From contig NC_091469.1 in the NCBI RefSeq assembly GCF_036971445.1, positions 159,340,001 through 159,404,000 on the forward strand: a DNA stretch of 64,000 nucleotides, written 5' to 3'. This document shows, in pieces, positions 37,633-64,000 of this stretch. The translations under genes and the position numbers were made by a program. Origin of the DNA: Narcine bancroftii. Its lineage: Eukaryota. Below the pieces are notes generated by a model. It saw only the letters and a program-made list of their open reading frames with translations, made no database searches and was not told where the DNA came from. Position 1 is the stretch's first letter, and every line of letters begins with the position of its first letter.

Positions 37633-38575
37633 AATTTTTCATGATTTCTGATGTCAATCCAAACTTCTGCAAACTCCTGAGGAAGTAGAGGTGCTGATGT
37701 TCTTTCTTCATGATCAGTCGATTATTTAAGGCAGAGAGTCAATCAATCTTTGCCTTAAATACACCTAACGACCTGGCCTCCACAGCCTCCCATGGTAGCA
37801 ATTCCAGACGTCACCAAGTTTTGGTAAAGAAATTCCTCTGAATCTCTGTTTTAAATGGGTCCCGTCAATCCTGAAGTTGTGTCCTGTTGTCCTAGACGCC
37901 TCTGCCATGTGAACTAACTTTCCCGCAGCTAAAAGCTCAGCAGGTCAAACAGTGAATTTATGGTGCAAATATAAAGATATAGAAACTACGTTTCAGGCTT
38001 GAGATTTTCATCAAGGCATGAGCAAAATGTCAGCAGGTGCTTGAACCAAATGGTGGGGGAGGGGTAGGGGGGGAGCAGAGTCCCACAGACAGGAGGTAAT
38101 AGGTGACTAAGGGAGGGAGCACTGCAGCAAACAGGGGGCGGGGGGATGGCTCTGTGAATGGAGAAGGAATGGGGTGGAGAGATGGGGGGATGGGGCAGCA
38201 GGAGGCACAGAGTCCCACAGGCAAGAGGTAAAAGGTGGCTAAGGGAGGGAGGCACAGCAGCAAACAGGAGGAGCGGGATGACTGTGAATGGAGAGGGAAG
38301 GGGAAGAGAGATGGAGGAGATGGGGGATGGGGAGGGAGGGAGAATGGGGAATGGGCTAGCAGAAGCTGACATTAATGCCATCTGGTTGGAGAGAACCCAG
38401 AAGGAATATTAGGTGTTGCTTTTCCAGTTTACAGGTGGTCTTAGTATGACATCCATCAGGCCAAGGTCAGACATATGTGGGTATGATCCCATCACCAGAC
38501 ACATCTCCTGCCCTTTCTATAGGGAATCATTCCCTCTGTGACTCCCTCATCCACTTTCCCCTTCCTGCTATTCGC

Positions 38576-39215
38576 CCCCTGTTGTAGGTATAACTACCCT
38601 GAGCTCCTCCAGCCTGTATCTCCCCTGTTGTAGGTATAACCACCCTGAGCCCCTCCAGCCTGTATGTCCCCTGTTGTAGGTATAACCGCCCTGAGCCCCT
38701 CCATCATGTATGTCCCCTGTTGTAGGTATAACTGCCCTGAGCCCCACCATCATGTATCTCCCCTGTTGTAGGTATAACCACCCTGTGCCCCTCCAGCCTG
38801 TATCTCCCCTGTTGTAGATATAACCGCCCTGAGCCCCTCCAGCCTGTATGTCCCCTATTGTAAGTATAACCACCCTGAGACCCTCCAGCCTGTATCTCCC
38901 CTGTTGTAGGTATAACCACCCTGTGCCCCTCCAGCCTGTATCTCCCCTGTTGTAGATATAACCGCCCTGAGCCCCTCCAGCCTGTATGTCCCCTATTGTA
39001 AGTATAACCACCCTGAGACCCTTCAGCCTGTATCTTCCCTGTTGTAGGTATAACCACCCTGTGCCACTCCAGCCTGTATCTCCCCTGTTGTAGATATAAC
39101 CGCCCTGAGCCCCTCCAGCCTGTATGTCCCCTATTGTAAGTATAACCACCCTGAGACCCTCCAGCCTGTATCTCCCCTGTTGTAGGTATAACCACCCTGA
39201 GCCCCTCTAGCCTGT
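38576..39215. repeat. 46-bp minisatellite (~14 units) with a 138-bp higher-order period
   Basis: Unit CCCCTGTTGTAGGTATAACCACCCTGAGCCCCTCCAGCCTGTATGT. Three variants cycle, giving the 46-aa periodicity of ORF 38568..39149. Confidence 0.95.
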
Positions 39216-39354
39216 TACACCCCTGTTCTACTGTGTTTATTTCTCAACCAGATCCAGCAGCATCTGACGACGTGTGATGAACAGATTCGCATCCTGAAAC
39301 TCCCGGTGTTTTCTCCTCTTCCAATACTGATCCATCTCCCCTCTCTCCCTGCAG

Positions 39355-39738
39355 ATTATTCCTACAATGGTTGGACAATGTCTGGTGCTGATATTGTGTC
39401 AACAGTGGAAGGATCCTCCGCCGTTTTGCCATGTAGTTTCACCCACCCACCTACGGAGCAGACACTCACTGGAACCGTGATGTGGTACAAGATTAAATCA
39501 GGAGTAAATAAACTTGTGTTTAACTGTACATGTTCTGACCTTGGATCCTCCCAATATGATCCGGCAACACAGGAGGTCGGAGGGGGTCGATTCACGTTCG
39601 TGGGGAACCTAAGCCAGAGAGATGCCTCAGTCATGATGGATCGTCTGAGGCGGGAGGACGGAGCTTGGTATCGGTGCCGCGTGGAGCTCAACATCGGTAA
39701 AATTCAAACTGTGTTTCCAATAACCCTGATCGTGAGAG
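39355..39738 (+). CDS. Ig V-set exon V1a, Siglec-15-like, essential Arg present
   Basis: Splice sites CCCTGCAG| and G|GTGAGA; 384 nt, phase 1-1. Motifs AVLPCSFTHP, W, VFNC, GRFTFVGN..RDAS and YRCRVE. Confidence 0.88.
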
Positions 39739-40184
39739 GTGAGAAAATACCCCATCTGCTGCATTGGGTCACACTCTTCACTCTTCCCCCAACTAATCAT
39801 AACATAACATAACATAACAATTACAGCACGGAAACAGGCCATTAGGCCCTTCTAGTCCGCACCAATAAAATTCAACAAGTTTGGTCAAACATGACTTCCC
39901 ATGCACAAACCCATGTTGAGTGTTCCTAATGTATCGCTAAGAACATTTTCCATGAACTTACCTACCACTGACTTTAAACTTACAGCCTGATAATTGCTAG
40001 GCTTGCTCCTTGAACACTTTTAAACAAAGGAACCACCTGTGCAATACGTCAATCTTCCGACACTATACCTATCTTTCCTGCATGAGTTCATATTGTTTTC
40101 AAAACTTACAAGTGAAATAAAGCAGGATAATTCGACGTGGTCATTCACAACCCAAGTCTGCATATGCTTGACTTGAGACCCCCA

Positions 40185-40640
40185 ACATTCGGGGCCACAA
40201 ACAGTTCTTCCCAATGAAGCAACTCTTCACTTGCGAATCTGCAGGGGTCATCTACTGCATCTGGTGCTCCCGCTGTGGTCTCCTCTACATCGGGGAGACT
40301 GGATGAAGACCGTTGAGCACCTTCACTACCACAGCAAGGAGCACCCAGTGACAAATCATTTCAATTCCCCTCCCCACTCCCGCACTGACATGTCTGTCCC
40401 TGGCCTCGTGCACTGCCAGACCAAAGCTAGTCACAAATTTGTGGAACAACACTTCATATTCCGTCTGGGCCCCCTCCAAACAGACAGCGTTAATGCCGAC
40501 TTCTCCAATTTCCGTTAACACCCCCCACCCCATCTCTCTTTCTCATTCCCCATCCCTCTGTCTACTTTCCATAGTTCCCCACCCCCTTCCCTCTCCATTC
40601 AGAGAGGAACCCCCCTCCTCCTATCACTTCCCAACATTTT
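40185..40640 (+). mobile_element. Penelope-like element fragment (GIY-YIG endonuclease); paralogous piece at ~44775-45005
   Basis: FTCESAGVIYCIWCSRCGLLYIGET...PVTNHFNS. Confidence 0.8.
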
Positions 40641-42125
40641 TTCGTTAATTTAATTTTTAATTAAATTTAGATGTACAGTGTGGTAAATGGCCCTTTTGGC
40701 CCATGTGTCCGTGCCACCCAATTAACCTACACTCCTGGTACATTTTTGAATTGTTCGAGGAAACTGGAGGCCCCGGGGAAGAACCACGAAGATACGGGGA
40801 GAACATGCAAACTCCTTACAGACAGCACAGGATTCGATCCCTTATCCTGATCACTGGCGCTGTAACAGCATTGCACTAACCAATACACCAACCCTTGCTG
40901 CACCACCCACCTATAACCTTTTGCCTGTTGGCCTGTGCCCCTCCCCATGCCCCTTCCTCTCTCCTCTCCTACCCCACTATTTTATCCAGGTGGTAATGGA
41001 CGGCTCAGGCCCAACCCTTTGGCTCCCTTTTACTTCCTGTTGATATTCCGTGACCTGCTGTGTTTTCCCGAGACAAGGATCCATTTTCCCTCTCAGGTCA
41101 CATCAGGGTTCCCTTCATGCAAATTCCTCGAGTGAGGAGCATCATCGGCAGTTGGACAGGATCTGGTCCATCAGAGACCAGCCGCAGGTTGATGGGGTCG
41201 TTCAGAAGGCCTGTGGTACATTGGCCTTTATTAGTTGGGGATTGAGCTCAGGAGTCATGAGGTAATGTCACAGCTCGATAAATATCCGATTAGACCACAC
41301 ACCGAATATTGTGTTCAGTTCTGGTCACTGCATTTCAGGAAGAATGTGGAAGCTATGGAGAGGGTGAAGAGGTGATTGACCAGGATGTTGCCAGGACTGG
41401 AACGGTTGAGTAAAATGCAAGGTTGGATAGGTTGAGTCTTTATTCCCTGGAGCGGAGGAAGATGAGGGACCTGGATGAAAGCTCACAGATTTGTCCCCGA
41501 GGTAGACGATCCTGAATCCAGAGGGCCTTATTTTGAGGTGAGAAGGGAAACACTCAAGATGGATCTGACGGCCATCTTTTCACACAGTAGTCATCGCAAC
41601 ACCATTACAGCACCAGTGATCGGGACAAGGGTTTGAATCCCACGCTGTTTGTAAGGAGTTTGCACATTCTCCCCGTGTCCGCGTGAGGGTTTCCCTGTAG
41701 GTTCCATTCCCCCCCCACCCACCCACCCTTCAAAACACAACATGGGTTGTAGGTGAATTGGGCAGCGCGGGCTCGTGGGCTGATAGGGCCTGTAACCGTG
41801 CTGTACATCTCAATTTTAAAATAGAGTTGTTTGCATCTGGAATGAGCTGCCAGCGGATCCTGTAGAAATGGCCACGATTGCAACATCTTAAAGACATTTG
41901 GTGGGGCGAACGGATGAGAAGGGTTGAAGGATATGGGTCAAATACAGGCAAATGGGACTGGCCCCGAATGCCAGCTGGGTCAATATGAAGGAGTCAGGCC
42001 GAAGGGCCTGTTTTGTGCTCTATAACTCCATAACTATTATTTTACAAGGTGGATATTTTGGCAGGAATTGATCGTGAAGGCAGGGAGGGTCGACTGATAA
42101 ATTTTGATGTCTGTCCTCCCCTCAG

Positions 42126-42521
42126 CTCCTGACGGGAAGGGTTCAGTGGTGAATGGGACCGAGGGAGATTCAGTCACCTTACCCTGTGTGTTCCAACGGC
42201 CTCTGTCTGACCTCACCCTGCACACGATCACCTGGATGGTGAAGGATCCTTATCAGCTCGTCGTCACATTCAGGCGCAGATCTGATGGATCGTGGGTGGC
42301 AGAAAGCGATGCAACTCGATACGAGCTCATCAGGGACCCCAAACATGGAGATGCCTCAACCCGGATAAACCAGCTGAGTGTGCGAGACAATCACGGCTAC
42401 CTGTGTCTAGTGGAGTCCAGGAAACCAGCTTATTTCTATAATATAAAGGGAATTAACGGTCAAGTGAAGACCCCCTATATTCATCTGTCCCAGTGCGAGG
42501 CCCGCTTGTTGGTCTCTCCTG
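42126..42521 (+). CDS. Ig V-type exon V2a
   Basis: Splice sites CCCCTCAG| and G|GTAAGA; 396 nt, phase 1-1. Motifs GDSVTLPC, W, GDAS.RI..L..RD..YLC. Confidence 0.85.
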
Positions 42522-42787
42522 GTAAGAACCCATTGCCAGTGTGTGGTGATGGGGAGGATGGGACAGAGGGTGGGTCCCAGGGCAGGACAGAGGGTGGGAC
42601 AGAGGATGGGGCTCCTCTGGATGGGAACCAACTTTACCGCAGCCAAAAACTCAGCAGGTCGAACAGTGACTTCATGCAAGCAAAGATACAGAACCTACGT
42701 TTCAGGCTTGAGATTTTTATCAAGGAATGAGCAAAATGTTAGCAGGTGCCCAAACTAAATGGTGGGGGTGGGGCGGAGGGGGAACAG

Positions 42788-43450
42788 AGTCCCACAGGCA
42801 GGAGGTAATAGGTGGCTAAGGGAGGGAGGCACAGCAGCAAACAGGGGGAGGGGGGAGGGCTCTGTGAATGGAGAGGGAATGGGGTGGAGAGCTGGTGGAG
42901 ATGGGGGGATGGGGCAGTAGAAGGTGCAGAGTCCCACAGGCATGTGGTGATAGGTGGATAAGGGAAGGGGACACAGCAGCAAACAGGGGGAGGGGGGAGG
43001 GCTCTGTGAATGGAGAGGGAATGGGGTGGAGAGCTGGTGGAGATGGGGGGATGGGGCAGTAGGAGGTGCAGAGTCCCACAGGCATGTGGTGATAGGTGGA
43101 TAAGGGAAGGGGACACAGCAGCAAACAGGGAGAGGGGGGAGGGCTCTGTGAATGGAGAGGGAATGGGGTGGAGAGCTGGTGGAGATGGGGGGATGGGGCA
43201 GTAGGAGGTGCAGAGTCCCACAGGCATGTGGTGATAGGTGGATAAGTGAAAGGGACACAGCAGCAAACAGGGAGAGGGGGGAGGGCTCTGTGAATGGAGA
43301 GGGAATGGGGTGGAGAGCTGGTGGAGATGGGGGGATGGGGCAGTAGGAGGTGCAGAGTCCCACAGGCATGTGGTGATAGGTGGATAAGGGAAGGGGACAC
43401 AGCAGCAAACAGGGAGAGGGGGGATGGCTCTGTGTATGGAGAGGGAAGGG
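42788..43450. repeat. 142-bp tandem repeat (~4.5 units) derived from a Penelope-like tail
   Basis: Near-identical ORFs start at 42868, 43010 and 43152. Confidence 0.95.
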
Positions 43451-44234
43451 GATAGAGAGCTGTAGGAGACTGATCTTCCAGTGGTCAACCATTTCTAATC
43501 TGATGCCCATTAGGGCAACTTGTCTGTCCATGGCCTCTTGTGATATCCCACCAAAACCTCCCATGAATTGGAAGAGCAACACCTAATTTCTGTCTGGGCA
43601 CTCTCCAGCCACATGGCATTAACATCAACTTCACCAGATTCTGCCAGTCTCCACCCCATTCTCCCTCCCTGCCTCATCCACCTGTGCACAATTACTTCTT
43701 TATTGTTTTATGCTAGTGGGAGTGAGGAGAAGAAAAAAAGAGTAAGTAATGAAACTCGTTCCCTGCACAGAACCTTACTCAGAAAACAATATTCTTGCTC
43801 AGCTTATATTGTCCTTTAGATGGGAGCCCACGGACAGTTTTGAATGTAGTTTTAAATGTTTTTTTTTTAACTTTTACAATCTAATGTTTTTGCTACTTCT
43901 GTCCTTTGCAATTCCTGAGATTTACAATTCAGTGATCTTCCCAGCAGCTTTCTGATCCCCCATATCTCTTGCTTCACACGCCCATCTCCTTCGAGTCCTG
44001 CTATGCTCTGCAGCTGTGGATGGCTTAAGCTAATATTGTGTACGTACTACAGCAGAAACCCCTTCCCATAATTCTTTACACCCTGGCCTGTATCTCCCCT
44101 GTTCTACTGTGTTTATGTCTCAACCAGACCTAGCAGTAACTGACAACATGTAATAAGCAGGTTTGCATCCTGAAACTCACAGTGTTTTCTCTAGTTCTTC
44201 CAATACTGATCACCCCTCCCCTCTCTCCCTGCAG

Positions 44235-44618
44235 ATTATTCCTACAACGGTTGGACAATGTCTGGTGCTGATATGGTGACAGCCGTGGAAGGGGAATCCG
44301 CCGTGTTGCCATGTAGTTTCACCCACCCACCCATGGAGCAGACCCTCACTGGTACCGTGATGTGGTATAAGATTAATCTAGGAGTAAATCAACTTGTGTT
44401 TAACTGTACATATCCCGACCTTGGACCCTACCGATGTGATCGGGCAACACAGGAGGTCGAAGGGGGTCGATTCAGGTTCGTGGGGAACATGAGCCAGAGG
44501 GATGCCTCGGTCATGGTGGATCATCTGAACAGGGAGGACGAAGCTCAGTATCGGTGCCACGTGGAGCTCAACATCGGTAAAATTCAAACTGCAGTTACAA
44601 CAAACCTGACAGTGAGAG
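44235..44618 (+). CDS. Ig V-set exon V1b, Siglec-15-like, essential Arg replaced by His
   Basis: Same splice sites and 384-nt length as V1a. Motifs VFNCTYPDLGPYRC and YRCHVE. Confidence 0.85.
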
Positions 44619-45411
44619 GTGAGCAAAGACCCCACCTGCTGCAGTGCGTCACAGTCTTCACTCCTCCCCCAACTAATCATATTGTTTTCAAAACTTACAA
44701 GTGACATAAAGCAGGATAATTCAACATGGTCATTCACAACCCAAGTCTGCACATGCTTGAGTTGAGACCCCCAACATTCGGGGCTACAAATTGTCCTTCC
44801 AAATGAAGCAACACTTCACTTGTGAGTCTGCAGGGGTCACCTACTGCATCTGGTGCTCCTGTTGTGGTCACTTTTACATCGGAGAGACTGGATACCGACC
44901 GTTGAGCACCTTCACTGCCACAGCAAGGAGCTCCCAGTGGCCAATCATTTCAATTCCCTTCCCCCCCCTGCACTGACCTGTCTGTCTCTGGCCTCCTGCA
45001 CTGCCAGAATATTGTGTTCAGTTCTGGTCACAGCATTACAGAAAGGATGTGGAAGCTATGGAGAGGGGGCAGAGGAGATTGACCAGGATGTTGCTAGGAC
45101 TGGAAGGGTTGAGTAAAAGGGGAGCTGGGATAGGCTGGGTCTTTCCTTCCTGGAGCGTAGGAAGATGATGAACCTGGATGAAGTGAATGCTCACAGATTT
45201 GTCCCCAAGGTAGATGATCCTGAACCCAGAGGGCCTTAGTTTGAGGTAAGAAGGGAAAGACACAAGAGGGATCTGACAGCCATCTTTTCACACAGAGGTG
45301 GATGGCATGATCTGTGTAGTGGTCAGCGCAATGTCTTTACAGCACTGACGATCGGGACCAGGGTGCAAATCCCACATTGTCTGTAAGGAGTTTGTACGTT
45401 CTCCCCTTGTC

Positions 45412-48400
45412 TGTAATATTACAGGATACTATCACCAATGTATATATTTGTATATATTTACATATATTAGTAGTGATTGGCTGAGAGCCGTAGCCACACC
45501 CACTGGCAGGTCATAAAGGGATGCTTCTACCCAGACCCAGGTCAGTCTGGACTGGACGACCTCGATGTATTGCGCTCCAGTCTTTTGTTAATAATAGCCT
45601 TGGTTTGATTCAAAAAGTCTTTGAGTCATTCGACGCACTACAATTTTATTTGCAAAAGTTTCAACGGATGGAGAGAATGCTGCGAGCAAAATGCCTCAGC
45701 ATCGACCCGCAGTCAGCTACTGCCCAGAGTGATTTCAGGCACTGGGTGAGGTGCTTCGAGGCAAACCTGCAGAGATCAGACCCCATCGTGGCGGAAGACA
45801 CAAATATACTGGTAACCCTGATGTCCGTGGTGTCCACGGTGGCCTACAAAAACATCCAGGATGCCATGAATGTGCTGAGGGGACTCTACGAGTGGCCTGT
45901 GAATAAGGTCTATGCCAAGCATATGCTAGCGACCAGTAGGTAAACCGGTGAGTCCTGCAGAACCTGCCTCCAGGCACTGAGGTTACTGGGTAGAGCTTGT
46001 GCATGCACAAACAAGATGGTGGCCGGAATCGCCGACGACCTCATCCGGGATGTATATGTGGCTGGGGTCCGATCCAATGAAGTGAGGCAACAATTGCTGG
46101 AGTATGGGGGAGACAGCTTGGTGGAGACCATTCAAATTGCTGGATGACTACACACAGGGCTAGGCCCCCCGTTACGATGTGAGTAGAATGCCAGCGTTTA
46201 GCCCAGGCTCCCCACGCCCCGGTGATGGCCTCGCCGCCGCCACCACACTACTCGACGCAGCCCCAAAGTGCTATTTCTGTGAGAGGGAGAAGCATAGTTG
46301 ATCCCTATGCCCTTCAAGGAAGGACCGATGTGCGAGTCCCAATTGCCTTCCCCAAATTCAAATTACTTGTCCTCAGAACTCTCATTCAATGAGAGCGAGG
46401 AATGCATCGCATGGCAACACTTGATGTCATGACACAAGCATCACATGCGGAAAGATCCGCCCCGCAACGCTCCACCCTCGCCACTATGACGCCACGCTCC
46501 ACTCTCGCCGCTGTGATGCTGATCCCCGACATGGCCCCCCCCCACCCAACAGGACCTTCGCGCAAGCAGGCCCCAAATTGCCTACACAGCGACGGCCGGC
46601 GCCTCCACAGCTCGACGACTCTGACCGTGTCCCGGCACAGGAAGACCCCGTCGGCCAGCCTGCACAGCGAGTATTGCCACCTCTGCAGCTTGCCGCTGAC
46701 TCCGGCCGAATGCTACCGTCTCTGCAACTCACCACCGTCAACCCGCCCACGCTGATGAAATCACCGCATGAGCTTAGCACGCACCAGGCCAAGGCCCCAT
46801 GACACTTCACCCCCACTCCAGCGACGCGAGGATACACTGGACGGCCTCGCCAGCGACGAGTGATGTCATCACACCAGCCTCCACCGTCACCAACACAGAC
46901 TGCAGCCCCACTCCCTGTATCAGTTGCTGCATCAGTGACATTAAAACCAGGACCAGCAAAACCCCCCTGCCAAGGCTATGGAAATGATTAAGGTGAACAG
47001 CAAACTGTCTATTTGATTCAGGTTCGAAAGAGATCTTCCTTCACCAGGACCTGGTCCAACAATGCGCGCTAGCAGTACACCCGACAGACCAGAAGATTTC
47101 ACTGGCCACAAAAGCCCACTCAACGGACACCAAGGGGTATTGTGAGGAGATCCTGAAAGTTCAGGGCATCAGATATATTGGTTTTAAGTTACTAATCCTG
47201 TCTCAGCTGTGTGCTCCTGTATTGTTGGGGTTGGATTTTCAATGCCATTTTCAATCGGTGTCACTGCATTACGGGGGTCTTCACGTCCCACTCTCTGTCT
47301 GCCACCACCACTCCACTCTGGATACCTCCTGCCAGTGTCACCCCATGCCAATACCCGCACTCCGACACTCCACTTGCAGCCTCTCCACCCCCCTGGTCGC
47401 TCCTCCAGCACTCTTCACTAACCTCACCCCTGGCTGGAAACCGATCACCACTAAATGTGGCAGTACAGTTTTGGGGACAGGAAATTTATTAAAAGTGAGG
47501 TGTGCAGATGGCTGGACGAGGGCATCGTTGAGCCCAGCGCAAGTCCCAGGAGGGCGCAGGTGGTAGTGGTGAAGAACGGGGAGAAGCTGCGGATGGTGGT
47601 TGACTACAGCCAAACTGTCAACCACTTCACGCTTTTGGATCCTTACCCTCTTCCGCGAATCACGGATGTGATGAATCAGATCACCCAATACCGTGTGTTT
47701 TCCACCATCGATCTCCGGTCAGCCTACCACCAGCTCCCGATCCGCACGGAAGACCGCCCTTTCGCGGCCTTCGAAGTGAACGGGCATTGTATCAATTACT
47801 CAGGATTCCCTTTGGTGTCACAATGGTGTCGCGGTCTTTCAGCGAGAGATGGACCAGATGGTAGACCAGAACGGCCTAACAGCTACATTCCCGAATCTAG
47901 ACAATGTCACCATCTGTGGCCACAATCCGCAGGACCATGACGCCAACCTTGACAAATACTTCCAAACAGCGAAATGGCTGAATCTGACCTATAATTTCGA
48001 GAAGAGTGTCTTCCGGACCACTCGACTCGCAATTCTAGGTTGCGTGGTGGAAATCGGGATGGTAAAGCCAGACCCGACCGCATGCGCCCTCTCATGGACC
48101 TTCCACCGCCCCAAACCCAGAAGACACTCAAACGCTGCCTGGGGCTTTTTCCTACTACACCCAATGGGTCCCACAGTACGCTGACAAGGCATGACCACAG
48201 TCCCAGTCAGCAGAAGTCAGAGCGGCCTTCGACCGCATCAAGTTGGACATCGCCGCAGCCACTCTGCACGCCATAGACGGATCCATACCCTTCCAGGAAG
48301 AGAGTGATGTATCTGGCTTTGCGCCGGCAGCCACCTTAAACCAGGCCGATAGGCCTGTTGCCTTCTTTTCTCGGACCTTCCAGGGCCCAGAAAGCCGACA

Positions 48401-50033
48401 TTCCTCTGTCATTGGAGACACTACCTCATGGCAGGCGCTTTACACTGCTGACCGACCAATGCGTGGCCTCATTTATGTTTAGCAGCAACCATCAGGATAA
48501 GATCAAAAACGACAAGATCGCCAGGTGGAGAATCGAACTCTCTACCTTCAACTACGATATTCTGTACCAGCCTGGCAAACTTAATGACCCGTCCCATGCC
48601 CTTTCCTGTGGGACATGCACCAGTGTACAACTGGACAGGCTGCAGAGACTCCATGAAGAGCTCTGTCACCCAGGGGTCACCAGGTTCGCCCACTCTGTGA
48701 AAACTCACAACCTGCCCCATAAGGTCGAGGAGATCCACTCCATGATCTGAGCCTGCCCAGTATGCGTTGAGTGCAAGCCCAACTTCTTCTGGTCAGAGAG
48801 GACCCATGTCATTAAAGCAACATGGCCCTTCGAATGACTCAGTGTGGACTCCAAGAAGCCCCCACCATCAACGAACCATAATACCTACATCCTCACAGTA
48901 ATCGAGGAGTACACCCGCTTCCCGTTCGGTATTCCCTGTCCGGACATGACCGCCTCCACAGTCATAAACGCTCTGCATGGCATATTAACCATTTTTGGGT
49001 ACCCCAGTTACATCCATAGTGACCGGAGTCCTCGTTCATGAGTGCGGAGCTGTGGCAGTACCTTCTGGAGCACGGTATTGCTTCAAGCAGAACCACTAGC
49101 TACAACCTGCGCAGTAACGGGCAGGTCGAAAGGGAGAATGCCACCATCTGGAAAGTGATCATGCTTTCCCTTCATTCTAAAGGCCTCCCCACCACTCGCT
49201 GGCAGGACGTCTTCCCAAACGCCCAACACTCCATCAGGTCACCAGTGCTACCCTGCACGAACATATGTTCTCGTTCCCACGGAAATCGTAGTCGGGAATG
49301 ACCACACCGGCTTGGCTGATGGTCCCAGGACCTGTCCTACTGAGACATCACATCTGGTACTCGAAAATCGACCACACAGTCGACCGGGTAACACTGTTAA
49401 ACATGAACCCACACTACATTTATATCAAGTACCTGGACAGATGGGAGGACACGGTCTTGGTAAGGGACCCGGCCCAAGCTGGGTCTGATGTTGTCACGTT
49501 CCAGCCCAAACCTCCATCCAATCCTCCCCTAGGTTACGGTGCCAGGACAGCGAGACCAGCAGCTCCTCACAGATGACAATGGCAGCAGTTTGTACCAATC
49601 TACAGCCAACGATGACCATGGACTAGGCAAAACTGTGTGTGAACCCCAGTGATGATACTCCAACAGCTACCCCAATCCCGGCGCCACGGCGATCACGTGG
49701 ACATTCAGGCCTCCCGACTGCTACAACCCATGAACACTGCATGCTATTCCCCCCGCCCTTTTTTAACTCACCCCAGGGGTCAGTTCTTAAAGAAGGGGTG
49801 AATGTAATAGTATAGGATACTCTCACCAATGTATATATTTGTATATATTTACATATATTAGTAGTGATTGGCTGTGAGCTGTAGCCACGCCTACTGGCAG
49901 GTCATAAAGGGCTGCTGCTAACCAGACCCAGGTCAGTCTGGACTAGTCGACCTCGATGTACTACGCTCCAGTCTTTTGCTAATAAAAGCCTTGGTTTGAG
50001 TCAACAAGACTTTGAGTCATTCAACGCGCTACA
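45412..50033 (+). mobile_element. Full-length degraded Gypsy/Ty3 element (LTRs 45412-45642 and 49803-50033)
   Basis: 231-bp TG..CA LTRs, TSD TTGTC/GTGTC and PPT AAGAAGGGGTGAA. Disrupted gag, RT (RMVVDYSQT, FSTIDLRSAYHQ), RNaseH and integrase. Confidence 0.93.
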
Positions 50034-50471
50034 GTGTCCATGTGGGTTTTCCCTGGAGGCTCCAGTTTAACCCCCTCCCCATCTTTCAAAACATACCAAG
50101 AGATGTAGATTAATTGGGTGGCACGGGCTCGTGGGCTGAAAGGGCCTGTAACCGTACTGTATGTCTCAATTTAAAAAAATAGAGTTGTTTGTATCTGGAA
50201 TGAGCTGCCAGAGGATCCTATAGAAATGAGCACGATTGCAACATCCCAAAGACATTTGGTCGGGCAAATGGATGAGAAGGTTCGAAGGATATGGGCCAAA
50301 TGCAGGCAAATGCGACTGGCCCAGAATGCCAGCTGGGTCAGTGTGATTCAGGCTGAAGGGACTGTTCTGTGCTCCCATGACTATTATTTACAAGGTGGAA
50401 ACTTTGGCAGGAATTGACCGTGAAGGCAGAGAGGGTCGACTGATATATTCTGGTGTCTGTTCTTCCCTCAG

Positions 50472-50865
50472 CTCCTGACGGGAATTGCTCAATGGTGAGT
50501 GGGACTGAGGGAGATTCAGTCACCTTACCCTGTGTGTTCAAATGGCCTCTGTCTGACCTCACCCTGCACACGGTCACCTGGATGGTGAAGGATCCCTATC
50601 GGCACATCGTCACATTCAGGCAGAGATCTGGTGGATCGTGGGTGGCAGAAAGCAATATCGAGTTATGAGCTCGTCGGGGACCCCGAACATGGAGATGCCT
50701 CAACCCGGATAAACCAGCTGAGTGTGCGAGAAAGTGGCAGATACCTGTGTCTGGTGGAGTCCAGTAAACCAGCTAATTTCCATTATCCAAAGGGAATTTA
50801 TGGTCCCCTGAAGACCTCGTTTATTCATCTGACCCAATGCGAGGCCCACTTGGTGGTCTCTCCTG
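50472..50865 (+). pseudogene. Ig V-type exon V2b, frameshifted (394 nt vs 396 nt)
   Basis: Splice sites are intact. A net 2-nt loss near 50655-50663 gives ...ESNIEL* (TGA 50666-50668). The rest of the domain lies in ORF 50631..50987. Confidence 0.82.
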
Positions 50866-52937
50866 GTAAGAAACCTTTGTCACTTTCTCCAGTGTGTGGT
50901 GAGGGGGAGGGCGGGGTGGAGAGTCTGTCACAGGCTGGGACACGCCAGGCATTTAGCTGCACCCACGCCCCATATCCAAAATCTTGAGCTGAAGGTCAGA
51001 TCTGTCGTTGCCAGACTTCGACCAACTTCCCGGACTCCGACTAACACACAATTTGTTTCACCTCTTGTCCGGCACCTGCCAATCAACGGCCTCTGTCTGT
51101 CAACCTGATCCACCAATCCCTCAATGGCTCCTGCCCAACCCCTCCCACCTTGACTTGATTATTTAAGATTCCTTTATTGTCATGTAATGTTACAGAACAT
51201 GTAATATTACATGAAATTGCTTTCTGTAAGGCAAAGAGTGGCCATTAGTGTCACATGAAGGGAAGAAGCAATGGAGAGTCCCTTCAGAGTCGCTGAGTGT
51301 CTGTGGATTATCTCCAACCCTCCCGCAGCCTCTGCAGCCACACAGACTCCTGTTCGATCCATCGACAACCCAAGCTCCAGATCCAAACTCCTGACCCAAT
51401 CAGGAAGCCTTCAGCACCCGAGGCCTTTTGGGAGCCCTTCTTGCCCTCAGCACCCTCTCGAATCCAGGTTCCAATATCTTGTTCCAGTCTCCAGCAACCC
51501 ATGCAGGTCCCCCAACCACAAGTTGCCCGCATCCTGTGTGGGTTCCTCAGCCACTGAGCCTCTCACTGGTCCATCCACTGTTCTCTCTCTTCCACGAATG
51601 CTGCTCGACCCATTGAGTTTCCCCAGCAGATTGTTTGTTGCTCTGGATTCAAGCACCCACAGTCTGCTTCCTCACACCACCTTGACCTTGGACCCTCATT
51701 CACTCACACTGACTATGGGAAGGTGTCACAGTTTAGTGGAGCCTTGGCCCCCTAACATGTGTGGACTGGTAACTGTGCAGCAAGGGCCATGGGACTGGCA
51801 GCGATCACGAGGTACACATCTCGCGCAAAGGGTGAGGGAAGGAAAGAGGACTCCATGTAGGGTCTTGGCTCATCTCTCCACCTCCAAGTGAAACAACACT
51901 TCACTTGTGAACCTTCAGAGGTCATAGAACATTACAGAACAGAAACAGGCCCTTCAGCCCTTCCAGTTCCACTAACCTGCACCCAGTCTATATCCCTCCA
52001 TACCTCACCCATCCATGTACCTGCCCAAATAATTCTTAAATTGAGGCCACATTTACCACTACTCATTCAACATTCCACCACCCTCTGTTCCCCCTAAACT
52101 TTTCCCCTTTCACCCTAAAGCCATGTCCTCTCGTATTTCTCTCTCCTAATCTAAGTGGAAAGAGCCTTCTCCCATTTACTCGGACTATACCCTTCATAAT
52201 TTTGTAAACCTTGATTAAATCTCCACTTATTCTTCTTCATTCCAAGGAATAAAATCCAAACCTGTTTAATCTTTCCCTGTAACTCAACTCCTGAAGACTC
52301 AGCAACATCCTAGTAAATCTTTTCTGCACTTTCAATCTTATTGATAGCCTTCCTGTTGCTAGGCAACCAGAACTGCACACAATATTCCAAATTTGGCCTC
52401 ACCAATGTCTTAAATAACTTCAACACAACATCCCAACTCTTATCCTCAATACTTAGATTTATAAAGGCCAGATGCCAAAAGCTTCCTTTACAACCCTGTC
52501 CACATGTGACACCCCCTTCAGGGAACAATGTACCTGTATCCCCAGGTCCCTTTCCTCCTCCACACTGCTCAGTGCCTGATCATTTACAGTGAATGTCCTT
52601 TCTGGATTTGCTCTTCCAAAATTCAACACCTCACACTTGTCTGCATTAAACTCCATCATCCATTTACTGGCCCAGTTTCCCAGCTGGTCCAGATCCTTCT
52701 TCCAGCTTTGAAAACCTTCCTCACTGTCCATAATGCCTCCTATCTTTGAGTCATCGACAAACTTGCTGATCCAATTTACCACGTTATCATCCAGATCATT
52801 GTTATCCCAACACAGATTCCTGAGGCACACCACTCGTCACCGGCCTCCGGTTTGAGAAGCAATGATCCACGGGCACTCGATTTTCTCCCCCACAGACAAT
52901 TTCGAATCCAGTTTACAACCACTCTATGTACACGTAG

Positions 52938-53922
52938 TGTTATGAGCCTAGAGGGCCCCAAAACCCAGCAGCAGTAGAAATTCACCAAGATAATGGTTAC
53001 TTAAATTTCTTTTAAACATAAAAAGAGGGTCAAATTTTAACTTATTCCTATTACCTTAAACCCCTTCTAATTCTAAGTGCACATGTATGTAATGTGTTTG
53101 CATTCAGGAAAGTTCTTTGTTTCAATGTTCAATCATTCTCTTTTCACTTCTCCAAGTTCACCGGTATCAGGCAATTCTCATACTGTGCACAGACCTATAC
53201 ATTTATGAATCTTCACCAGGCTCTGGTGCTTAAAGTTAAATGGTTACTGCTCAGGAATGTTCTCGTTGCTTTCAGAGAGAGATTTGTTGCTCGTTGGACA
53301 CACACGAACAGATTTCCTCTAATCAGTCACTTCAATGTCTTGCTGAAGTAACTGCCACATCATGGATTTTCTAGGTGATAACCTCTTCTTCCAGGTCAGC
53401 ACAGAGTTCCTCTTGTTTCCCTTATTTCATGAAAAACACTCTAGCCAGCCATTTCATCTTGTAAGGTCAACAAGGGTTTTGAACAGGCTGAACTCACAAC
53501 TCACAACCTGTCTTCAAAATAGGGTTTTCAACAAGCTGCCAGCTTGCCATTTTGCAGCCTCAACTGCTACTGTGGAACTGACCTCTCTCTCTCTCACACA
53601 AAAAGAAATCACCTGTTTCTTTATTCTCTCTCTACTGGTAAAAACCATACGACCTCTTCCAGGGCTCCAAACCCAATTGCCGAAAGATCTTATCTGTATC
53701 TCTGAGCCTGGACTTTATCACCCGTACACAATAGATCAGCATCTTCATTGCTTCTGCAAAGTCAACCGGAGCCTCAGCATCCAGCTTCAGCAAAGCTCTT
53801 GCATTTGAAATGAGATGTCTTTTGTGATGTGTTACTGTTTGTGAAGTGACCTACATAAAACCCCCACAATCTCTCTTTTAAACACAATTTTTTTCATTAC
53901 TATTCTAACATATCCCCAAACA
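52938..53922. mobile_element. Probable solo LTR (~985 bp)
   Basis: TGTT...AACA termini with GTAG/CTAG flanks. It interrupts the CR1 RT and is related to 11640-12475. Confidence 0.7.
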
Positions 53923-56900
53923 CTAGTGCCTGAACTGTCTGAACTAACCTCCCTTGTGGAACATTTCCTTCATCTACCTTCTTGGCAACTTACTGAAAAA
54001 AAACTGAACAAGGGGGAGTCACGTGATGGAGTAGTGGCCAGTTGGTTTGAACCAGCCCTCTCCAGAAAAAAAGAATAAAAAATTGGAAAAGACAGAGCTC
54101 AACGAATATAAAACTCAAGAAATAGAAGATAAAGTTACAGAGAAGAACAAGAAGATGGCACCAAAAAAAGAGAAAGTATGATCAATGGGAAAAAAGAAGG
54201 AAAATCATTGGAGAAGAAAGAAGAAGGCCTTACCTGCACGCAGGGGCAGGGAGCTACAGTGGTGAAGAGCAGCTGATCTCTGAGGTTGGTGAGTGCCCTG
54301 CGAAATCGTGACCTCCCGACCGGTGGACTCCAAAACTGGCTTTTTGAGCCAAACAAAAGTGCGCAATCATAGGATAAAGTGAACACCAGCAGGAGGGGGG
54401 GAGGGGGGGCTCAGCTGAGGAGCGGGCAGCTACAACGTGACCAGCTGAGAGAAGCCCGGCATCAGGGCGCTCAGCTGGAGGAACAAAATAACGGCGAGGA
54501 AAAGATCGAGGAGCCGGAAGAGGGAGAACGGTGGCAGGGTGGCTGACAACAAGAGAATCAACAGCAGGAGGCCCAACAGACAGATGGCCCGTGACCAGAG
54601 GCCCAACAGCAAGAGGTCCAGCAAGAAGAGGCTCAACAAAGTGAGACAAGCAACTCATCAGGAAAATCAGAAGAGACACAGATACAAAGAAGAGAAGAAG
54701 AAGACCCAAACACAGGTACAGACACAGAAGAAGAGGAGGAAGAAGACCAAGATCTTCACAGGGAAATAGAAGGTAAAACAGATGGACAGAATATAGATAA
54801 AGTTTTTTTTCGAGAACAAATGAGAGCATTAAAAGAATGGTTGTCATTAGAATTTAGTGCAGTTAAAAGAAAAATGAAAAGAGCATAAGATAAAATGCAA
54901 AGTTTAGAACTGGTCATGACAGAAATAGGGAAAAGCATGTGGAAGAGCGGGAAACGTCTCTAGAAATGGAAGTAAAGAGAAAAATTGGAAGAAAGTGACA
55001 AAAAAGTTAGACACAAAAGTTGTTATCTCAGAAAATTGATATGTTGGAAAATTATAGTAGGAGAAACAACGTAAAAATAGTGGGCCTGAAGGAGGGTGAA
55101 GAAGGCACAGACATGAAGGAATTTATAAAAGGATGGATCCCGAAGGTCCTGGGAACGACAGAAATGCAGGAAGAAATGGAAATAGAAAGGGAACACAGAG
55201 TATTAGCTCCGAAACCACAGACACATCAAAAACCAAGATCCATCTTAGTAACATTTTTAAGATATACAACAAGAGAAAATATACTGGAGCGGGCAAGGAA
55301 TAAAATTAGAGAAGATAATAAGCCATTGGAATATAAGGAACAAAAAATATTTTTTTACCTGGACAAGTTTTGAACTCTTAAAGAAGAGGAAGGAATTTAA
55401 TACGGCGAAAACGATTTTATGGAAGAAAGGCTATAAATTCATGTTAAGACATCCAGCCGTGCTTAAAGTATTTATACCTGGGGAGCAAAACAGGCTGTTC
55501 TCGGATCCGGAGAAAGTGCAAGAATTCACAGAACATTTGCAGGGCAGAAGAAGAGATGAAGAAATGTAACATGAAAGAAGAACGGTGATAAAGTATATAT
55601 AAAGATGTAAAAATATAAAGTAAAAATAATGTATATGTAAAGAACTAAAGATGGAAAAGAGAAGGGAAGGAAGGAAGAAGGGGGAAAAGAGAGAGAGCTT
55701 TGTAATATGTATAAAAAGATAATGTTTTCTTGGGGGGGCTGGGGGGAGAGAATAACCGTCATTGTGAAATCAGTTGATGCTTGCGAGCAAGATCGCAAAC
55801 CAAATGGAAAGGGGAGTTGTGGTTGCCTGGCAAGGGATAAGGGGAAACTCAGAGAGGGGGGGTTCATTTGGGGTCAAGGTGTTATTGGTTGTGGGGATTG
55901 TCAGAGTATTTCATGTTTTAAATGTGTTGTGATACATTGAGTTTAAAAAATGAAAACTAAAAGACAAAAATGGGAAAAAGGGGGATGGAGGTGGTGAGGA
56001 GGAGGAAAAGAGGTGTAAACAAGATATAAGATGGCCATGTTGAACTATATGACTATAAACATTAATGGAATACATAACCAAATTAAAAGGAAGAGGCTAC
56101 TAAATTTACTGAAAAAAAAAAGATATAGCATTTGTGCAAAAAACGCATCTAACTGAAGTGGAACATAACAAACTAAAGAGAGACTGGGTAGGACATGTAA
56201 CAGCAGCATGATATAATTCAAAAGCCAGAGGTGTAGCCATATTAGTTAACAAAAATGTACCAATCAAAATAGAGGAGGAAATAATAGATCCAACAGGGAG
56301 GTATGTAATGATAAAGCGTCAGATATACTCAGAATTTTGGAATTTTCTCAATATATACGCACCTAATGAGGAGGATCACAAGTTTATGCAAGATATTTTT
56401 TTTGAAGAGTGTAGATACACAAGGGAATATATTGATAGGAGGGGACTTTAACCTTAATTTGGACCCAAAGTTGGATAAAACTGGACAAAAGACAAGCAAA
56501 AAGAATAAAGTAGCCAAATTGATGGTTAAATCAATCCAGGAAATGAAACTTATGGATATATGGAGGAGGCAGCACCCAAGGGAGAAGGAATACTCATATT
56601 ATTCGAGTAGGCATAAAACATACTCAAGGATTGATATGTTTTTGTTGTTGGCCCATATTCAAGGGAGAGTTAGAGAGTTAGGAAAACTGAGTATAAAGCT
56701 AGATTACTTTCTGATCATTCACCCCTGTCATTAGTAATAGAACTGGAGGACATCCAACCAAGAACATATAGATGGAGGTTAAACTCCATGCTACTTAAAA
56801 GACAGGATTTTAGAGAGTTTATTGAACACCAAATTAAAACATATTTTGAAATAAACACAGAATTGGTTAAAGATAAATTTATACTATGGGATGCAATGAA

Positions 56901-58141
56901 AACCTTCATTCAAGGGCAGATAATAAGTTATGTAACTAAGATGAAAAAGGAATACAATCAGGAAATAGAGCAGTTGGAAAGGGAGAAAGTATTTACAGAA
57001 AAGGAACTAGTGAAAAGGGACGATATAAAGAAAAAGAGAGAATGGCGGACATAAAAATAAAATACAAAACATTACAAGCGTATAAGGTGGAGAAGAACAT
57101 AATGGAAATAAAGCAAAAGTATTACGAATTGGGGGAAAAAAACATAAAATATTAGCCTGGCAACTTAAAACAGAAGAAGCTAAAAGACCTGTATTGGCAT
57201 CAAGGAAAAAGGACAAACAAATCACATATAACCCAACAGAGATTAATGAAAACTTAAGGAATTTTATGAATAATTATACCAAACTGAGAATGAGGGGAAA
57301 GATGATAAAATAGAAGAGTTTTTAGCTAAAATTGAACTGCCAAAATTGCAAGAGGAGCAAAAAAAAAACTGATAAAACCATTTGAAATAGAGGAAGTAGA
57401 GGATATATTAAAAAAGCTGCCGAACAATAAAACACCAGGAGAGGATGGATTCCCAATAGAATTCTATAAAACATTTAAAGATTTATTAATTCCTCCTCTC
57501 CTGGAAGTAATGAATCAGGTTGAAGAAACACAAAACTTGCCAGACTCATATAAGACAGCAATAATTACAGTAATACCAAAGGAAGGATCCATTAACACCA
57601 GCATCATATAGACCAATACCTCTACTTAGCTCAGATTATAAGATAATAGAGAAATTATTAGCAAACAGATTGGCCGACTGAGTACCAAAAATAGTAAAAC
57701 AAGATCAAACTGGATTTATCAAGAAAAGACGAACAGCAGATAATGTCTGTAAACTTATTCATTAAATTCATGCAGCTCAAGGATTAAAGTAAAAAAACAA
57801 TGGTGGCTGTTGCCTTAGATGCAGAAAAAGTCTTTGACAGGGTAGAGTGGAACTACTTATTTAAAGTATTACAGAAGTTCAATCTGCCAGAAAAATATAT
57901 TAATTGGATTAAAGCATTATATAATGGACCATTGGCAAAGGTAAATGGATATGTATCGAACCAGTTCAAATTAAGTAGATCAACTAGGCAGGGATGTCCA
58001 TTATCGCCCTCATTGTTCACCTTAGCAATAGAACTATTGGCAGATCTGATAAGAATAGAAAATAAAATAAAAGGGATAAAAATAAAGGAGAAGGAGTATA
58101 AAATCAGTTTATTTGCAGATGACATCATAGTATACCTAACA

Positions 58142-58510
58142 CAGTGGTTCTCAACCTTTTACTTTCCACTCACATACAACTTTAAATATTCCCTGCCATA
58201 AGTATTCTGTGATTAGTAAGTGATTGCTTAAGGTGGTCTGTGAGTAGGAAGGGAAGGTTGAGAATCACTGCTCTAGACCCAATTATTACTGAAATATTTT
58301 GTTTGAGAAAATTGTCATTGGTCCATTTCCTTTGGAGATCTGAAACCGTGCACATAACGAGTCAATGAGGGATGATTAAAACAGTGGTTTTCAAACTTTT
58401 TCTTTCCACCCACATACCACCTTAAACAATCCCTTATTAATCACAGAACACTTATGCATAGGGAATACTTAGTGATATGTGAGTGGAAAGTAAAAAGTTG
58501 GGAACTACTG
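58142..58510. mobile_element. Composite hAT (Charlie-like) MITE in L1 ORF2
   Basis: CAGTGGTTCTCAAC...GTTGGGAACTACTG with two internal palindromic modules. Perfect 8-bp TSD ACCTAACA (58134-58141, 58511-58518). Confidence 0.9.
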
Positions 58511-58904
58511 ACCTAACAGAACCAGAGATATCAATAAAATAACTACATAAGAAATTGAAGGAATATTGGAGTATAAGGTTAACACAAATAAAAGTGAAGC
58601 GATGCCAATGAGTGATGCAAATTGTACAGAACTTGAAAAAGAATCACCATTTAAATGGCAAGCACAAGCTATCTGATACCTAGGGATCAGGTTAGATAAT
58701 AACTAAAGCCACTTGTACAAACTAAATTATCAGCCACTAATAAAGAAATTCCAGGAAGGCTTAGAACATTGGAAAAAATTACCGCTAACGTTGTTAGGGA
58801 GGGTGAACTGCATTAAAATAAATGTGCTCCCAAGGATACAATATTTATTTCAAATGTTACCAATTCCCTTAACAGAGAAATTCTTTGTTGAACTAAAGAG
58901 AATA

Positions 58905-63000: not shown

Positions 63001-63219
63001 CATGGAAATCCACTTCCTAAACACATCTAACTTATTGACAATTTAAAATTGATACATCTGAGAACATTCCTATCATGTACAAACCTCTGCTTTCTGAATT
63101 TCCATTCTGTCCTGCTTTAACAGCTCTCCCTCTCTTTCTTTGTCACCATCTATTATCTCCATGGCTTCCTGGCCTTAATCAATTAACTCAATTCCAGCCT
63201 CCTGACTCCAACTCTAAAA

Positions 63220-63855
63220 ATGTTGAGGGAAACTTCTTCACACAGAGTGTGGTGGGAGTGTGGAACGGGCTGCCTGCTGAGGTGGTGAATGTGGGCTCAA
63301 TTTTAACATCTGAGAAGTATTTGGACAGGTACATGGTTGGGAGGGGTATGGAGGGATATGACCTGGGTACAGGTTAGTGGGACTAGGCAAAAAAATGGTT
63401 CAGCTCAGAATAGAAGGGCCGAAGAGTCCTGTTTCTGTGCTGTAATGTTCCATGGTTCTAAACAGTCCATTCAACCCTTCTAGTCTGTTCCAAACTATTA
63501 TTCTGCCTAGTCCCACTGACCATATTCCTCCAGACCCCTCCCATCCATGTACCTGTCCCCCTTGCTTGTTTCTTGTCTGTCAAACTCAAGTTGGCAGCTC
63601 GTTCCACACTCCCACTACTCTCTGTGTGAAAAGGTTCCTCCTGACATTCTCCCTGAACTTCTCCACTAACCCATGTCCTCCAGTTCTTGTTTCACTCCAA
63701 CCTCAGTGGAAAAAACCTACTCTGTGTTTACTCCTCAAAATTTTAAATACCTCGATCAAATCTCCCCTCATTCTTCTACGCTCCAAGGAACAAAGTCTTA
63801 ACCTGTTTAACCTTTCCCTGTACCTCAGTTCCTCAAGTCCCGGCAACATCCTCAT
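63220..63855. mobile_element. Two tail-to-tail CR1 3' fragments
   Basis: GNFFTQSVVGVWN on the + strand to ~63458, then a minus-strand CR1 3' end. Confidence 0.75.
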
Positions 63856-64000
63856 GAATCAAGTGAGGGTGGATTCTGGGCAGGTGCAACCAGGTGGTGG
63901 ATCAGGGAAGAGTTAAGTGATGGGGGAACCCGGTGGGGGGGGGGGGAGACAGGTAGATTATGGGGAATCAGGTGGGGTAGAGTGGGGTGAGACAGGTAGG

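What the first reader, a model, noticed from the sequence alone, without database searches (positions are those of the whole stretch)
37898..50910. Siglec-15-like receptor with a V-V-V-V ectodomain built by intragenic cassette duplication
Seen: four symmetric phase-1 exons in the order V1a-V2a-V1b-V2b. The duplication junction lies in the intron ~90 nt after V2a, and no leader or TM exon is evident between the units. Known: Siglec-15 has one V-set domain (LPC.FTHP, VF.C, GRF...GN, Y.CRVE, all echoed here) followed by one C2-set domain, and Siglecs generally follow V with C2 domains. Inference: a lineage-specific multi-V sialic-acid-receptor-like gene. The second domain type is V-length (132 codons), not C2.
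Basis: partly seen in the sequence, partly recalled or inferred. Interest (0 to 1): 0.7.

Follow-up and report, generated by a model that had tools for sequence, protein, structure and literature searches.

The report
Damaged four-V Siglec-15-like ray receptor
This ray gene has a doubled pair of antibody-like V domains related to the sugar sensor Siglec-15, but a two-base deletion breaks the fourth domain in this animal, so it likely makes a shorter inhibitory immune receptor by exon skipping, or a truncated product, within a shark-and-ray family of likely on/off receptors that repeatedly changes its domain number.

Summary
The V1a-V2a-V1b-V2b layout, the junction 92 nt after V2a and the V-set nature of V2 are real. 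V2b is not symmetric. It is 394 nt, with a 2-nt frameshift and a stop at 50666. DNA contigs of one sample confirm the deletion, and the RefSeq models end there. The leader (25986) and open TM and ITIM-tail exons (just past the window) make this one inhibitory-type gene. This allele cannot encode a four-V membrane receptor; skipping V2b gives an open 543-aa three-V form (predicted). V1a keeps the sialic-acid Arg but has lost a Siglec-15 cysteine; V1b has His for Arg. The gene sits in a 2.6-Mb cluster of V-V genes with ITIM tails or a TM lysine, the best genome-wide match to bony-vertebrate Siglec-15. The layout is not specific to this lineage: intact (V1V2)2 and (V1V2)3 models exist in bamboo sharks, and multi-V Siglec-15-like models in chimaera, lungfish and newt. 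It is Siglec-15-related but not SIGLEC15 itself (no C2, no Lys). Seven literature searches listed no description of the family. This scan noted the same family before in skate DNA.

The parts
25986..26046 (+). Leader exon (ATG, signal peptide, phase-1 donor)
   Evidence: matches the N-terminus of RefSeq models XP_069798692.1/XP_069798693.1
37899..38332 (.). Repeat-derived intron segment found upstream of both V1a and V1b; start of the duplicated cassette
   Evidence: 84% over 449 nt to 42614-43056; only short (65-152 nt), 74-75%, inverted matches in 2 of 5 paralogue upstream regions tested
38576..39227 (.). 46-nt minisatellite (14.2 copies) upstream of V1a; also upstream of V1 in paralogues C, D, E; absent as an array before V1b
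39355..39738 (+). Exon V1a, Siglec-15-like V-set domain; Arg kept, C104-equivalent replaced by Tyr, extra Cys nearby, G-strand aromatic replaced by Ile
   Evidence: a contig of run X5 begins at the acceptor with 19 foreign letters in front
42126..42521 (+). Exon V2a, V-set domain without the Arg, open frame
42554..42614 (.). Duplication junction; a 12-nt microsatellite (4.8 copies) lies directly before the switch point at 42614
44235..44618 (+). Exon V1b, V-set domain; four Siglec-15 cysteines kept, Arg replaced by His; cryptic donor 42 nt upstream used by RefSeq isoform X2
   Evidence: donor +1 G>A at 44619 in one contig of run X5
45412..50033 (+). Decayed Gypsy-like LTR retrotransposon in the V1b-V2b intron only; LTRs 45412-45642 and 49803-50033 match at 210 of 231 nt
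   Evidence: RVT_1 hit; the Gypsy label is my reading of the ORF order and is recalled
50472..50865 (+). Exon V2b, 394 nt, frameshifted; first 185 nt identical to V2 of the inverted neighbour gene A; indel at the end of that tract; stop at 50666-50668
50866..64000 (+). Intron leading out of the window to the rest of the gene: an uncharged TM exon at G000:C1:159405635-159405724 and six open tail exons (starting at C1:159409364, 159410956, 159413888, 159418446, 159425081, 159428376) with two CTYAxV/L motifs and a terminal VIYAAV ITIM
   Evidence: ITIM consensus from PMC7226832 passages

Best explanation
This is one gene of a shark-and-ray cluster of Siglec-15-related V-V receptors, whose V1-V2 cassette was likely duplicated inside the gene and whose fourth V exon is frameshifted in this individual, so it is predicted to yield a three-V (or shorter) ITIM-bearing inhibitory receptor by skipping that exon, plus a truncated four-exon transcript that would likely be degraded or secreted. 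Shown: exon layout, frameshift, open TM and tail exons, the open reading frame of the skipped forms, Siglec-15 as closest solved relative, and neighbours with a TM lysine. Inferred: the ancestral unit was leader-V1-V2-TM-tail; unequal crossing-over copied V1-V2 (dS about 0.2, as old as the ray's paralogues); a retrotransposon then entered the second copy; gene conversion from the head-to-head neighbour A overwrote the first 185 nt of V2b and left the indel at the tract end. Inferred function: the outermost domain V1a would engage a sialylated ligand through its Arg, probably weakly or with altered specificity; the inner V domains would act as a stalk in place of C2; the tail tyrosines would recruit SHP-1/2, opposing the Lys-bearing, DAP12-type neighbours.
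For: Frameshift in the sequence and in DNA contigs. RefSeq models stop at the same codon. In-silico splicing: forms with V2b stop in V2b (473 or 213 aa); forms without it run to the last exon (543, 415, 283 aa). Skipping of V2 is annotated in relatives: V1-TM isoforms P0009, P0021, P0024, P0025. 7 V1 and 7 V2 exons but 6 inhibitory-type TM exons in C1:159.3-159.95 Mb. Shared intron segment before V1a and V1b. V2b is 100% identical to gene A over 185 nt and 86% in the 3' half, and groups with it at 100/90. V1a vs PDB: Siglec-15 first by phmmer (E 1.8e-10), family profile (83.5 bits on one domain, CD33 39 bits) and fold (Z 18.1, rmsd 2.0, 120 aligned; sialoadhesin 16.1). Gull SIGLEC15 as query puts 23 of 24 genome matches in this cluster, and a lungfish Siglec-15 model 28 of 36 with the top 12. 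Of 72 distinct family V1 domains, 59 keep the Arg and 69 the C104 equivalent. Lys-bearing TMs in cluster neighbours and in other rays and sharks.
Against: No read showed V2a-V1b, V1b-V2b or V1b-TM junctions, so the skipped isoform is predicted only, and RefSeq lists only the two truncated proteins in this cluster. V1a and V1b are not supported sisters in either tree, and V2a groups with paralogues C/E, so a fusion of two paralogues is not excluded. In run X5 (another sample) the V2b-specific 3' contig (50745-50865) is preceded only by an in-frame, gene-A-type contig, which may mean an intact allele. The Siglec-15 clade is starred under LG+G4 (97/87) but not under the mixture model (83/92), and the AU test does not reject grouping V1 with sialoadhesin/CD22 (p 0.255). 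V1a lacks the C104 equivalent and the G-strand aromatic, so binding may be lost. The V1a model was built with five Siglec-15 rows among 35, which can pull it towards 7zoz.
Confidence: 0.62

Rival explanations
1. The locus is a decaying pseudogene: every transcript either includes the frameshifted V2b or has a damaged V1b junction, and no surface receptor is made.
For: Stop 197 nt upstream of the V2b donor, a textbook NMD position (rule recalled). Both RefSeq proteins lack a TM. V1b donor G>A in an X5 contig. V1a and V1b each lack a Siglec-15 hallmark. dN/dS 0.64 for V1 and about 1.2 for V2, on few sites. Human SIGLEC12 decayed in a similar way (PMC6288428 passages).
Against: Leader, three V exons, TM and all six tail exons are open with canonical splice sites, and V2b has no further stop in its original frame. 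Contigs of runs X5 and X7 begin exactly at the V1a acceptor, and an X5 contig ends exactly at the V2b donor.
Confidence: 0.18
2. The frameshift is a null allele in this animal, and other individuals carry an intact allele that encodes the four-V inhibitory receptor the first reader proposed.
For: In run X5 the only contig across 50657 carries the two extra bases and all 16 gene-A-type letters, ends at 50774 and overlaps by 30 nt the V2b-specific contig that ends at the donor. Intact (V1V2)2-TM models exist in two bamboo shark genera. Null alleles are common in paired Siglecs.
Against: Contig building drops variants, so a deleted path may have been collapsed onto gene A. The same run shows a dead V1b donor, which would remove V1b or truncate the product. 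No contig links four V exons.
Confidence: 0.12
3. The main product is a secreted decoy of three V domains plus half of V2b, as in the RefSeq models.
For: XP_069798692.1 and XP_069798693.1 have a signal peptide and no TM. Soluble two-Ig receptors are known in carp (PMC3031540 passages).
Against: The half domain ends before its second cysteine and would be unfolded (inferred). Splicing at the V2b donor, suggested, would trigger decay.
Confidence: 0.08

Closest known systems
SIGLEC15 (human, PDB 7ZOZ; PMC10264397, PMC6941304, PMC7226832, passages read)
   Same: V-set with W44, C64-C142, C95-C104 and R143 equivalents in most family members; best hit by sequence, profile and fold; Lys-bearing TM in cluster neighbours
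   Different: No C2 domain; two to four V domains; multigene cluster; this gene has an uncharged TM and an ITIM tail; V1a lacks C104, V1b lacks R143, V2 lacks both the Arg and the second disulfide
Paired CD33-related Siglecs 5/14 and 11/16 (PMC6288428 passages)
   Same: Inhibitory and activating types side by side, gene conversion between neighbours, null alleles
   Different: Different Siglec branch (closest to Siglec-15 in my trees); C2-less; domain number changes by cassette duplication
Primate Siglec-12 (PMC6288428 passages)
   Same: Tandem V-set domains, Arg loss, frameshift or stop alleles
   Different: Siglec-12 keeps C2 domains and is CD33-related; here two distinct V types alternate
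RefSeq models of bamboo sharks (XP_072449516.1, XP_060690378.1, XP_060690354.1, XP_060703220.1) and Heptranchias (XP_067838505.1), auto-named pIgR-like or uncharacterized
   Same: Same family; (V1V2)2, (V1V2)3 or V1V2V2V2 with TM and, in most, tyrosine tails
   Different: Those models are intact; their internal repeats group by species, so they arose or were homogenised separately. I did not check them against DNA or reads
PILR-alpha/beta, and skate MDIRs
   Same: C2-less V-set paired receptors (PILR layout recalled); MDIRs are modular activating/inhibitory receptors of skate (PMC3031540 passages)
   Different: AU test rejects V1 with PILR-like rows (p 0.006); MDIRs are described as CD300/TREM/pIgR-like and were not compared directly

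Membership tests
SIGLEC15 | N-terminal V-set domain with the essential F-strand Arg (R143) | tested here: met
   V1a has it; V1b has His, V2 Leu; 59 of 72 family V1 domains keep it (role)
SIGLEC15 | Disulfides C64-C142 and C95-C104 in the first V domain | tested here: not met
   V1a has Tyr at the C104 position and an extra Cys; V1b has all four; 69 of 72 family domains have C104
SIGLEC15 | Supporting contacts W44 and G-strand aromatic Y154 | tested here: inconclusive
   Trp present; Ile at the Y154 column in V1a and V1b, Phe in 54 of 72 family domains; the alignment has a 3-residue gap there
SIGLEC15 | One C2-set domain after the V domain | tested here: not met
   Second domain is V-set (43 bits, cut-off 26; fold matches are V-set); no C2 exon in the traced gene
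SIGLEC15 | Transmembrane lysine for DAP12/DAP10 | tested here: not met
   TM of this gene is uncharged; Lys present in neighbours at C1:158.01 Mb and 157.54 Mb
SIGLEC15 | Groups with SIGLEC15 in a tree to the exclusion of other Siglecs | tested here: inconclusive
   One clade with SIGLEC15 at 97/87 (75 of 104 rows) and 83/92 (37 rows); AU does not reject V1 with sialoadhesin/CD22 (p 0.255) or with amniote SIGLEC15 alone (p 0.236); MAG and CD33 not in the tree
SIGLEC15 | Conserved neighbours (SLC14A, EPG5, PSTPIP2, ATP5F1A; list recalled) | tested here: inconclusive
   ATP synthase alpha and urea transporter exons are on C8, not C1; no Siglec-15-like exon in 200 kb beside ATP5F1A and no C8 match genome-wide; an FN3/LamG/EGF gene flanks the cluster; EPG5 and PSTPIP2 not located
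Siglecs in general | Sialic-acid-dependent binding | not testable with these tools
   needs a glycan array or cell binding with an Arg mutant
Inhibitory immune receptor | Uncharged TM and cytoplasmic ITIM [I/V/L/S]xYxx[L/V] | tested here: met
   terminal VIYAAV fits; two CTYAxV/L motifs are ITIM-like only (consensus)
PILR | V domain groups with PILR-like domains | tested here: not met
   AU p 0.006; the PILR-like label of those rows is my motif reading, the database name of one is 'turtle homolog B-like'; PILRA fold Z 15.4 vs 18.1 for Siglec-15
pIgR / CD300 / MDIR | CD300/pIgR-type V domains | tested here: inconclusive

The most novel reading that the evidence does not exclude
Siglec-15, a single conserved activating receptor in mammals, gave rise in cartilaginous fish to a paired on/off receptor cluster that dropped the C2 domain and tunes its reach by repeated duplication of a V1-V2 cassette. 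This ray locus catches that process in progress, with intact four-V and broken alleles segregating through gene conversion from a head-to-head neighbour.
Probability: 0.3. Interest if true: 0.65.

Novelty: new variant of a known kind. Interest (0 to 1): 0.42.

Why it matters
Fish are said to have four regular Siglecs, with Siglec-15 as an activating V-C2 receptor (PMC7226832 passages), and paired Siglecs are known from the CD33-related branch. A Siglec-15-related cluster with ITIM and Lys types, no C2 and variable V number in sharks and rays, plus multi-V relatives in chimaera, lungfish, gar and newt models, would mean the paired-receptor design arose separately from the Siglec-15 branch, and that mammalian V-C2 Siglec-15 may be the reduced case. 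That is testable with Fc fusions. The gene in this window is a poor representative, since its fourth domain is broken; the intact bamboo-shark four-V genes are better test objects.

Tried and rejected
Assembly error as the cause of the frameshift: rejected by DNA contigs. Two separate genes: no leader or TM between the units, one surplus V1-V2 pair over TM exons. The 9-nt gap shared by V1a and V1b is not evidence of sisterhood: other rays share it, so it is an insertion in paralogues A/C/D/E. No listed run is on record as RNA; X5 and X7 are guessed RNA, and loose ends that match V1 exon ends at the V2 acceptor show spliced molecules in them. Run X5 gave almost no cover on V2a, and X6 none on V2b; holes in contigs prove nothing and were not used. 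The X7 contig joining a V1b body to V2a has 8 differences, equal to the 8 V1a/V1b differences after a shared 32-nt stretch; I read it as an assembly-graph chimera that supports only the V1a-V2a splice. One search was dominated by repeats (196 joints and 1283 loose ends not shown). Synteny: a guessed EPG5 family accession does not exist in the library; a Pfam scan of 150 of 721 unmasked flank ORFs found only an FN3/LamG/EGF gene and repeat domains. Literature: searches listed no paper describing this family; the MDIR paper was not held; no supplements were opened, and a supplement table of Siglec-like genes in a shark genome paper (for example PMC8455134, one passage read) could list members. 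No complex prediction was run, as no binding claim depends on it. Earlier findings by place and by sequence returned nothing.
Full report
Observation. V1a, V2a and V1b score as V-set above the Pfam cut-off, with no C2-set hit. The duplication junction is at 42614, 92 nt after the V2a donor, directly behind a 12-nt microsatellite. No leader or TM lies between the units. Contigs of runs X1 and X2, one sample, cross the site with no difference, at depths 5.8 and 8.2, like unique flanks. It is therefore not a consensus error, though this sample may be the assembly's own. A 4.6-kb decayed LTR retrotransposon lies between V1b and V2b.

The whole gene. A protein search returned RefSeq models of this locus, named Narcine bancroftii by the source: XP_069798692.1 (473 aa) and XP_069798693.1 (459 aa). 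Both run leader-V1a-V2a-V1b into V2b and end at the frameshift stop, without a TM. The leader exon is at 25986-26046. Using paralogues as guides, I found the TM exon 1.6 kb past the window end and six tail exons up to 24 kb past it, all open, with canonical sites, two CTYAxV/L motifs and a terminal VIYAAV ITIM. In-silico splicing gives stops in V2b whenever it is included, and open frames of 543, 415 and 283 aa when it is skipped. V1-TM isoforms are annotated in relatives, so skipping is plausible, but I saw no read for it.

Reads. Runs X5 and X7 are guessed RNA; they hold V1-to-V2 splice junctions of paralogues. In both, contigs start exactly at the V1a acceptor. In X5 a V2b-specific contig ends exactly at the V2b donor. 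The only X5 contig across the indel is in frame and carries gene A's 16 diagnostic letters, ending one base before the next diagnostic site. This is either an intact allele with a longer conversion tract or a collapsed assembly bubble; I cannot tell which. An X5 contig also shows G>A at the V1b donor, and RefSeq isoform X2 uses a cryptic donor 42 nt upstream.

History of the cassette. Between C1:159.3 and 159.95 Mb there are 7 V1 and 7 V2 exons but 6 inhibitory-type TM exons. A 434-nt intron segment precedes both V1a and V1b at 84% identity; paralogue introns have only short inverted matches in 2 of 5 tested. This favours duplication inside the gene. The units differ as much as paralogues do (86-90%; dS 0.20), so the event is not recent. 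Gene A lies head-to-head just left of the window; the first 185 nt of V2b are identical to its V2, the 3' half only 86%, and the indel sits at the tract end. V2b groups with gene A, V2a with genes C/E, and V1a/V1b are not supported sisters, so a fusion of two paralogues remains possible.

Relationship to Siglec-15. Siglec-15 is the top PDB hit for V1a, for a 17-sequence family profile (83.5 bits on one domain; CD33 39) and for the V1a model (pLDDT 86; Z 18.1, rmsd 2.0, 120 aligned; sialoadhesin 16.1; the model's alignment held five Siglec-15 rows of 35). V2a models as a V-set fold, with nectin-1 and Siglec-15 tied (Z 14.8 and 14.4). In reverse, gull SIGLEC15 places 23 of 24 genome matches in this cluster and a lungfish model 28 of 36. 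Human Siglec-15 uses R143, W44, Y154 and disulfides C64-C142 and C95-C104 (PMC10264397 passages). Among 72 distinct family V1 domains (isoform near-duplicates and three rows of this gene included), 59 keep the Arg, 69 the C104 equivalent and 54 a Phe at Y154. V1a has the Arg but not C104 or the aromatic; V1b has the cysteines but His for Arg. Trees put the family and SIGLEC15 in one clade, starred under LG+G4 (75 of 104 domains; 29 near-redundant or partial rows dropped) and 83/92 under the mixture model (37 domains). AU tests reject a PILR-like grouping but not sialoadhesin/CD22. Synteny is unsettled. The gene fails SIGLEC15 membership on C2, TM lysine and one disulfide. It is best called Siglec-15-related.

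Family breadth. The two homologue searches returned 49 and 53 proteins, all from sharks and rays, including V1-V2-TM genes with either tyrosine tails or a TM lysine. Intact (V1V2)2 models occur in Chiloscyllium and Hemiscyllium, (V1V2)3 in Hemiscyllium, V1V2V2V2 in Heptranchias; internal repeats group by species. A sister subfamily keeps C2 (V-V-C2, some with Lys) in this ray at C1:157.4-157.6 Mb, in Mobula, Heptranchias and Callorhinchus; lungfish has V-V-C2-Lys and seven-V-C2 models, newt V-V with tyrosine tail, gar V-V. These are database models that I did not verify.

Mechanism. Most likely the gene makes a three-V or shorter inhibitory receptor by skipping V2b, with V1a as the ligand-facing domain, inner V domains as stalk and tail tyrosines recruiting SHP-1/2 against Lys-bearing neighbours that would signal through DAP12 (Siglec-15 signalling: PMC6941304 and PMC7226832 passages). 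Splicing to the TM, ligand and signalling are all inferred. Rivals are a pseudogene, an intact four-V allele in other animals, and a secreted decoy. Gene conversion, null alleles and Arg loss parallel primate Siglecs 11/16, 14 and 12 (PMC6288428 passages).

Novelty. Seven full-text searches (listings seen) showed no paper on this family; subscription papers and supplements were not visible. RefSeq already models the locus under automatic names. This scan noted the same family in skate DNA (e1-8642515, e1-10277933), which I read after forming my view and do not count as support. Verdict: a real but damaged member of an apparently undescribed Siglec-15-related paired receptor family. New variant of a known kind, interest 0.42.

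Noticed in passing
G000:C1:157540375-157565968 (L128, L129, L130): V-V-C2-TM gene with a TM lysine, C2 and TM in one open stretch; the best local candidate for a SIGLEC15 co-orthologue, yet its first V has Leu where the Arg should be.
   Followed up: partly
window 105-2369 vs 20861-23018, and 24400-25378 vs C1:159339129-159340182: Inverted duplicate 5' flanks: this gene and gene A stand head-to-head about 28 kb apart, which would favour gene conversion.
   Followed up: partly
window 44619: V1b splice donor reads G>A in one contig of run X5 (depth 6.7); RefSeq isoform X2 uses a cryptic donor 42 nt upstream that removes the G strand.
   Followed up: partly
G000:C1:159520165, 159720569, 159920354 (P0006, P0008, P0061): Paralogues C and E/F have Phe in place of the B-strand cysteine of V1, and C also Ser for the F-strand cysteine, so the core Ig disulfide is lost in otherwise open genes.
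   Followed up: no
G000:C1:159542604-159567203: Paralogue D looks rearranged: a TM exon lies upstream of its V1 and only the last tail exon was found downstream.
   Followed up: no
G000:C1:158055948-158056289 (L009): V1 exon of paralogue H has an in-frame TGA.
   Followed up: no
G000:C1:159413698-159414518 vs 159424891-159425690: The tyrosine-motif tail exon is duplicated within this gene (85% identity); paralogues A and C have multiplied other tyrosine exons, so tails also vary by exon duplication.
   Followed up: partly
window 27640-30435 and 34864-37633; 10372-11414, 15594-16730, 32267-33405: Two 94%-identical LINE-like 5' copies in the first intron, and three 94-95%-identical copies of another LINE with reverse transcriptase.
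   Followed up: no
G000:C5:196284642-196284962 (L113): A separate V exon with PILR-like motifs (my reading), the best match to Siglec-15 queries outside the cluster.
   Followed up: partly
G000:C1:159.99-160.06 Mb (L181-L187): FN3, laminin G and EGF exons flank the cluster, a layout like pikachurin/EGFLAM (name recalled).
   Followed up: partly
P0105 (XP_043935463.1, lungfish): Model with seven tandem Siglec-15-like V domains, all with the F-strand Arg, followed by one C2 and a TM.
   Followed up: partly
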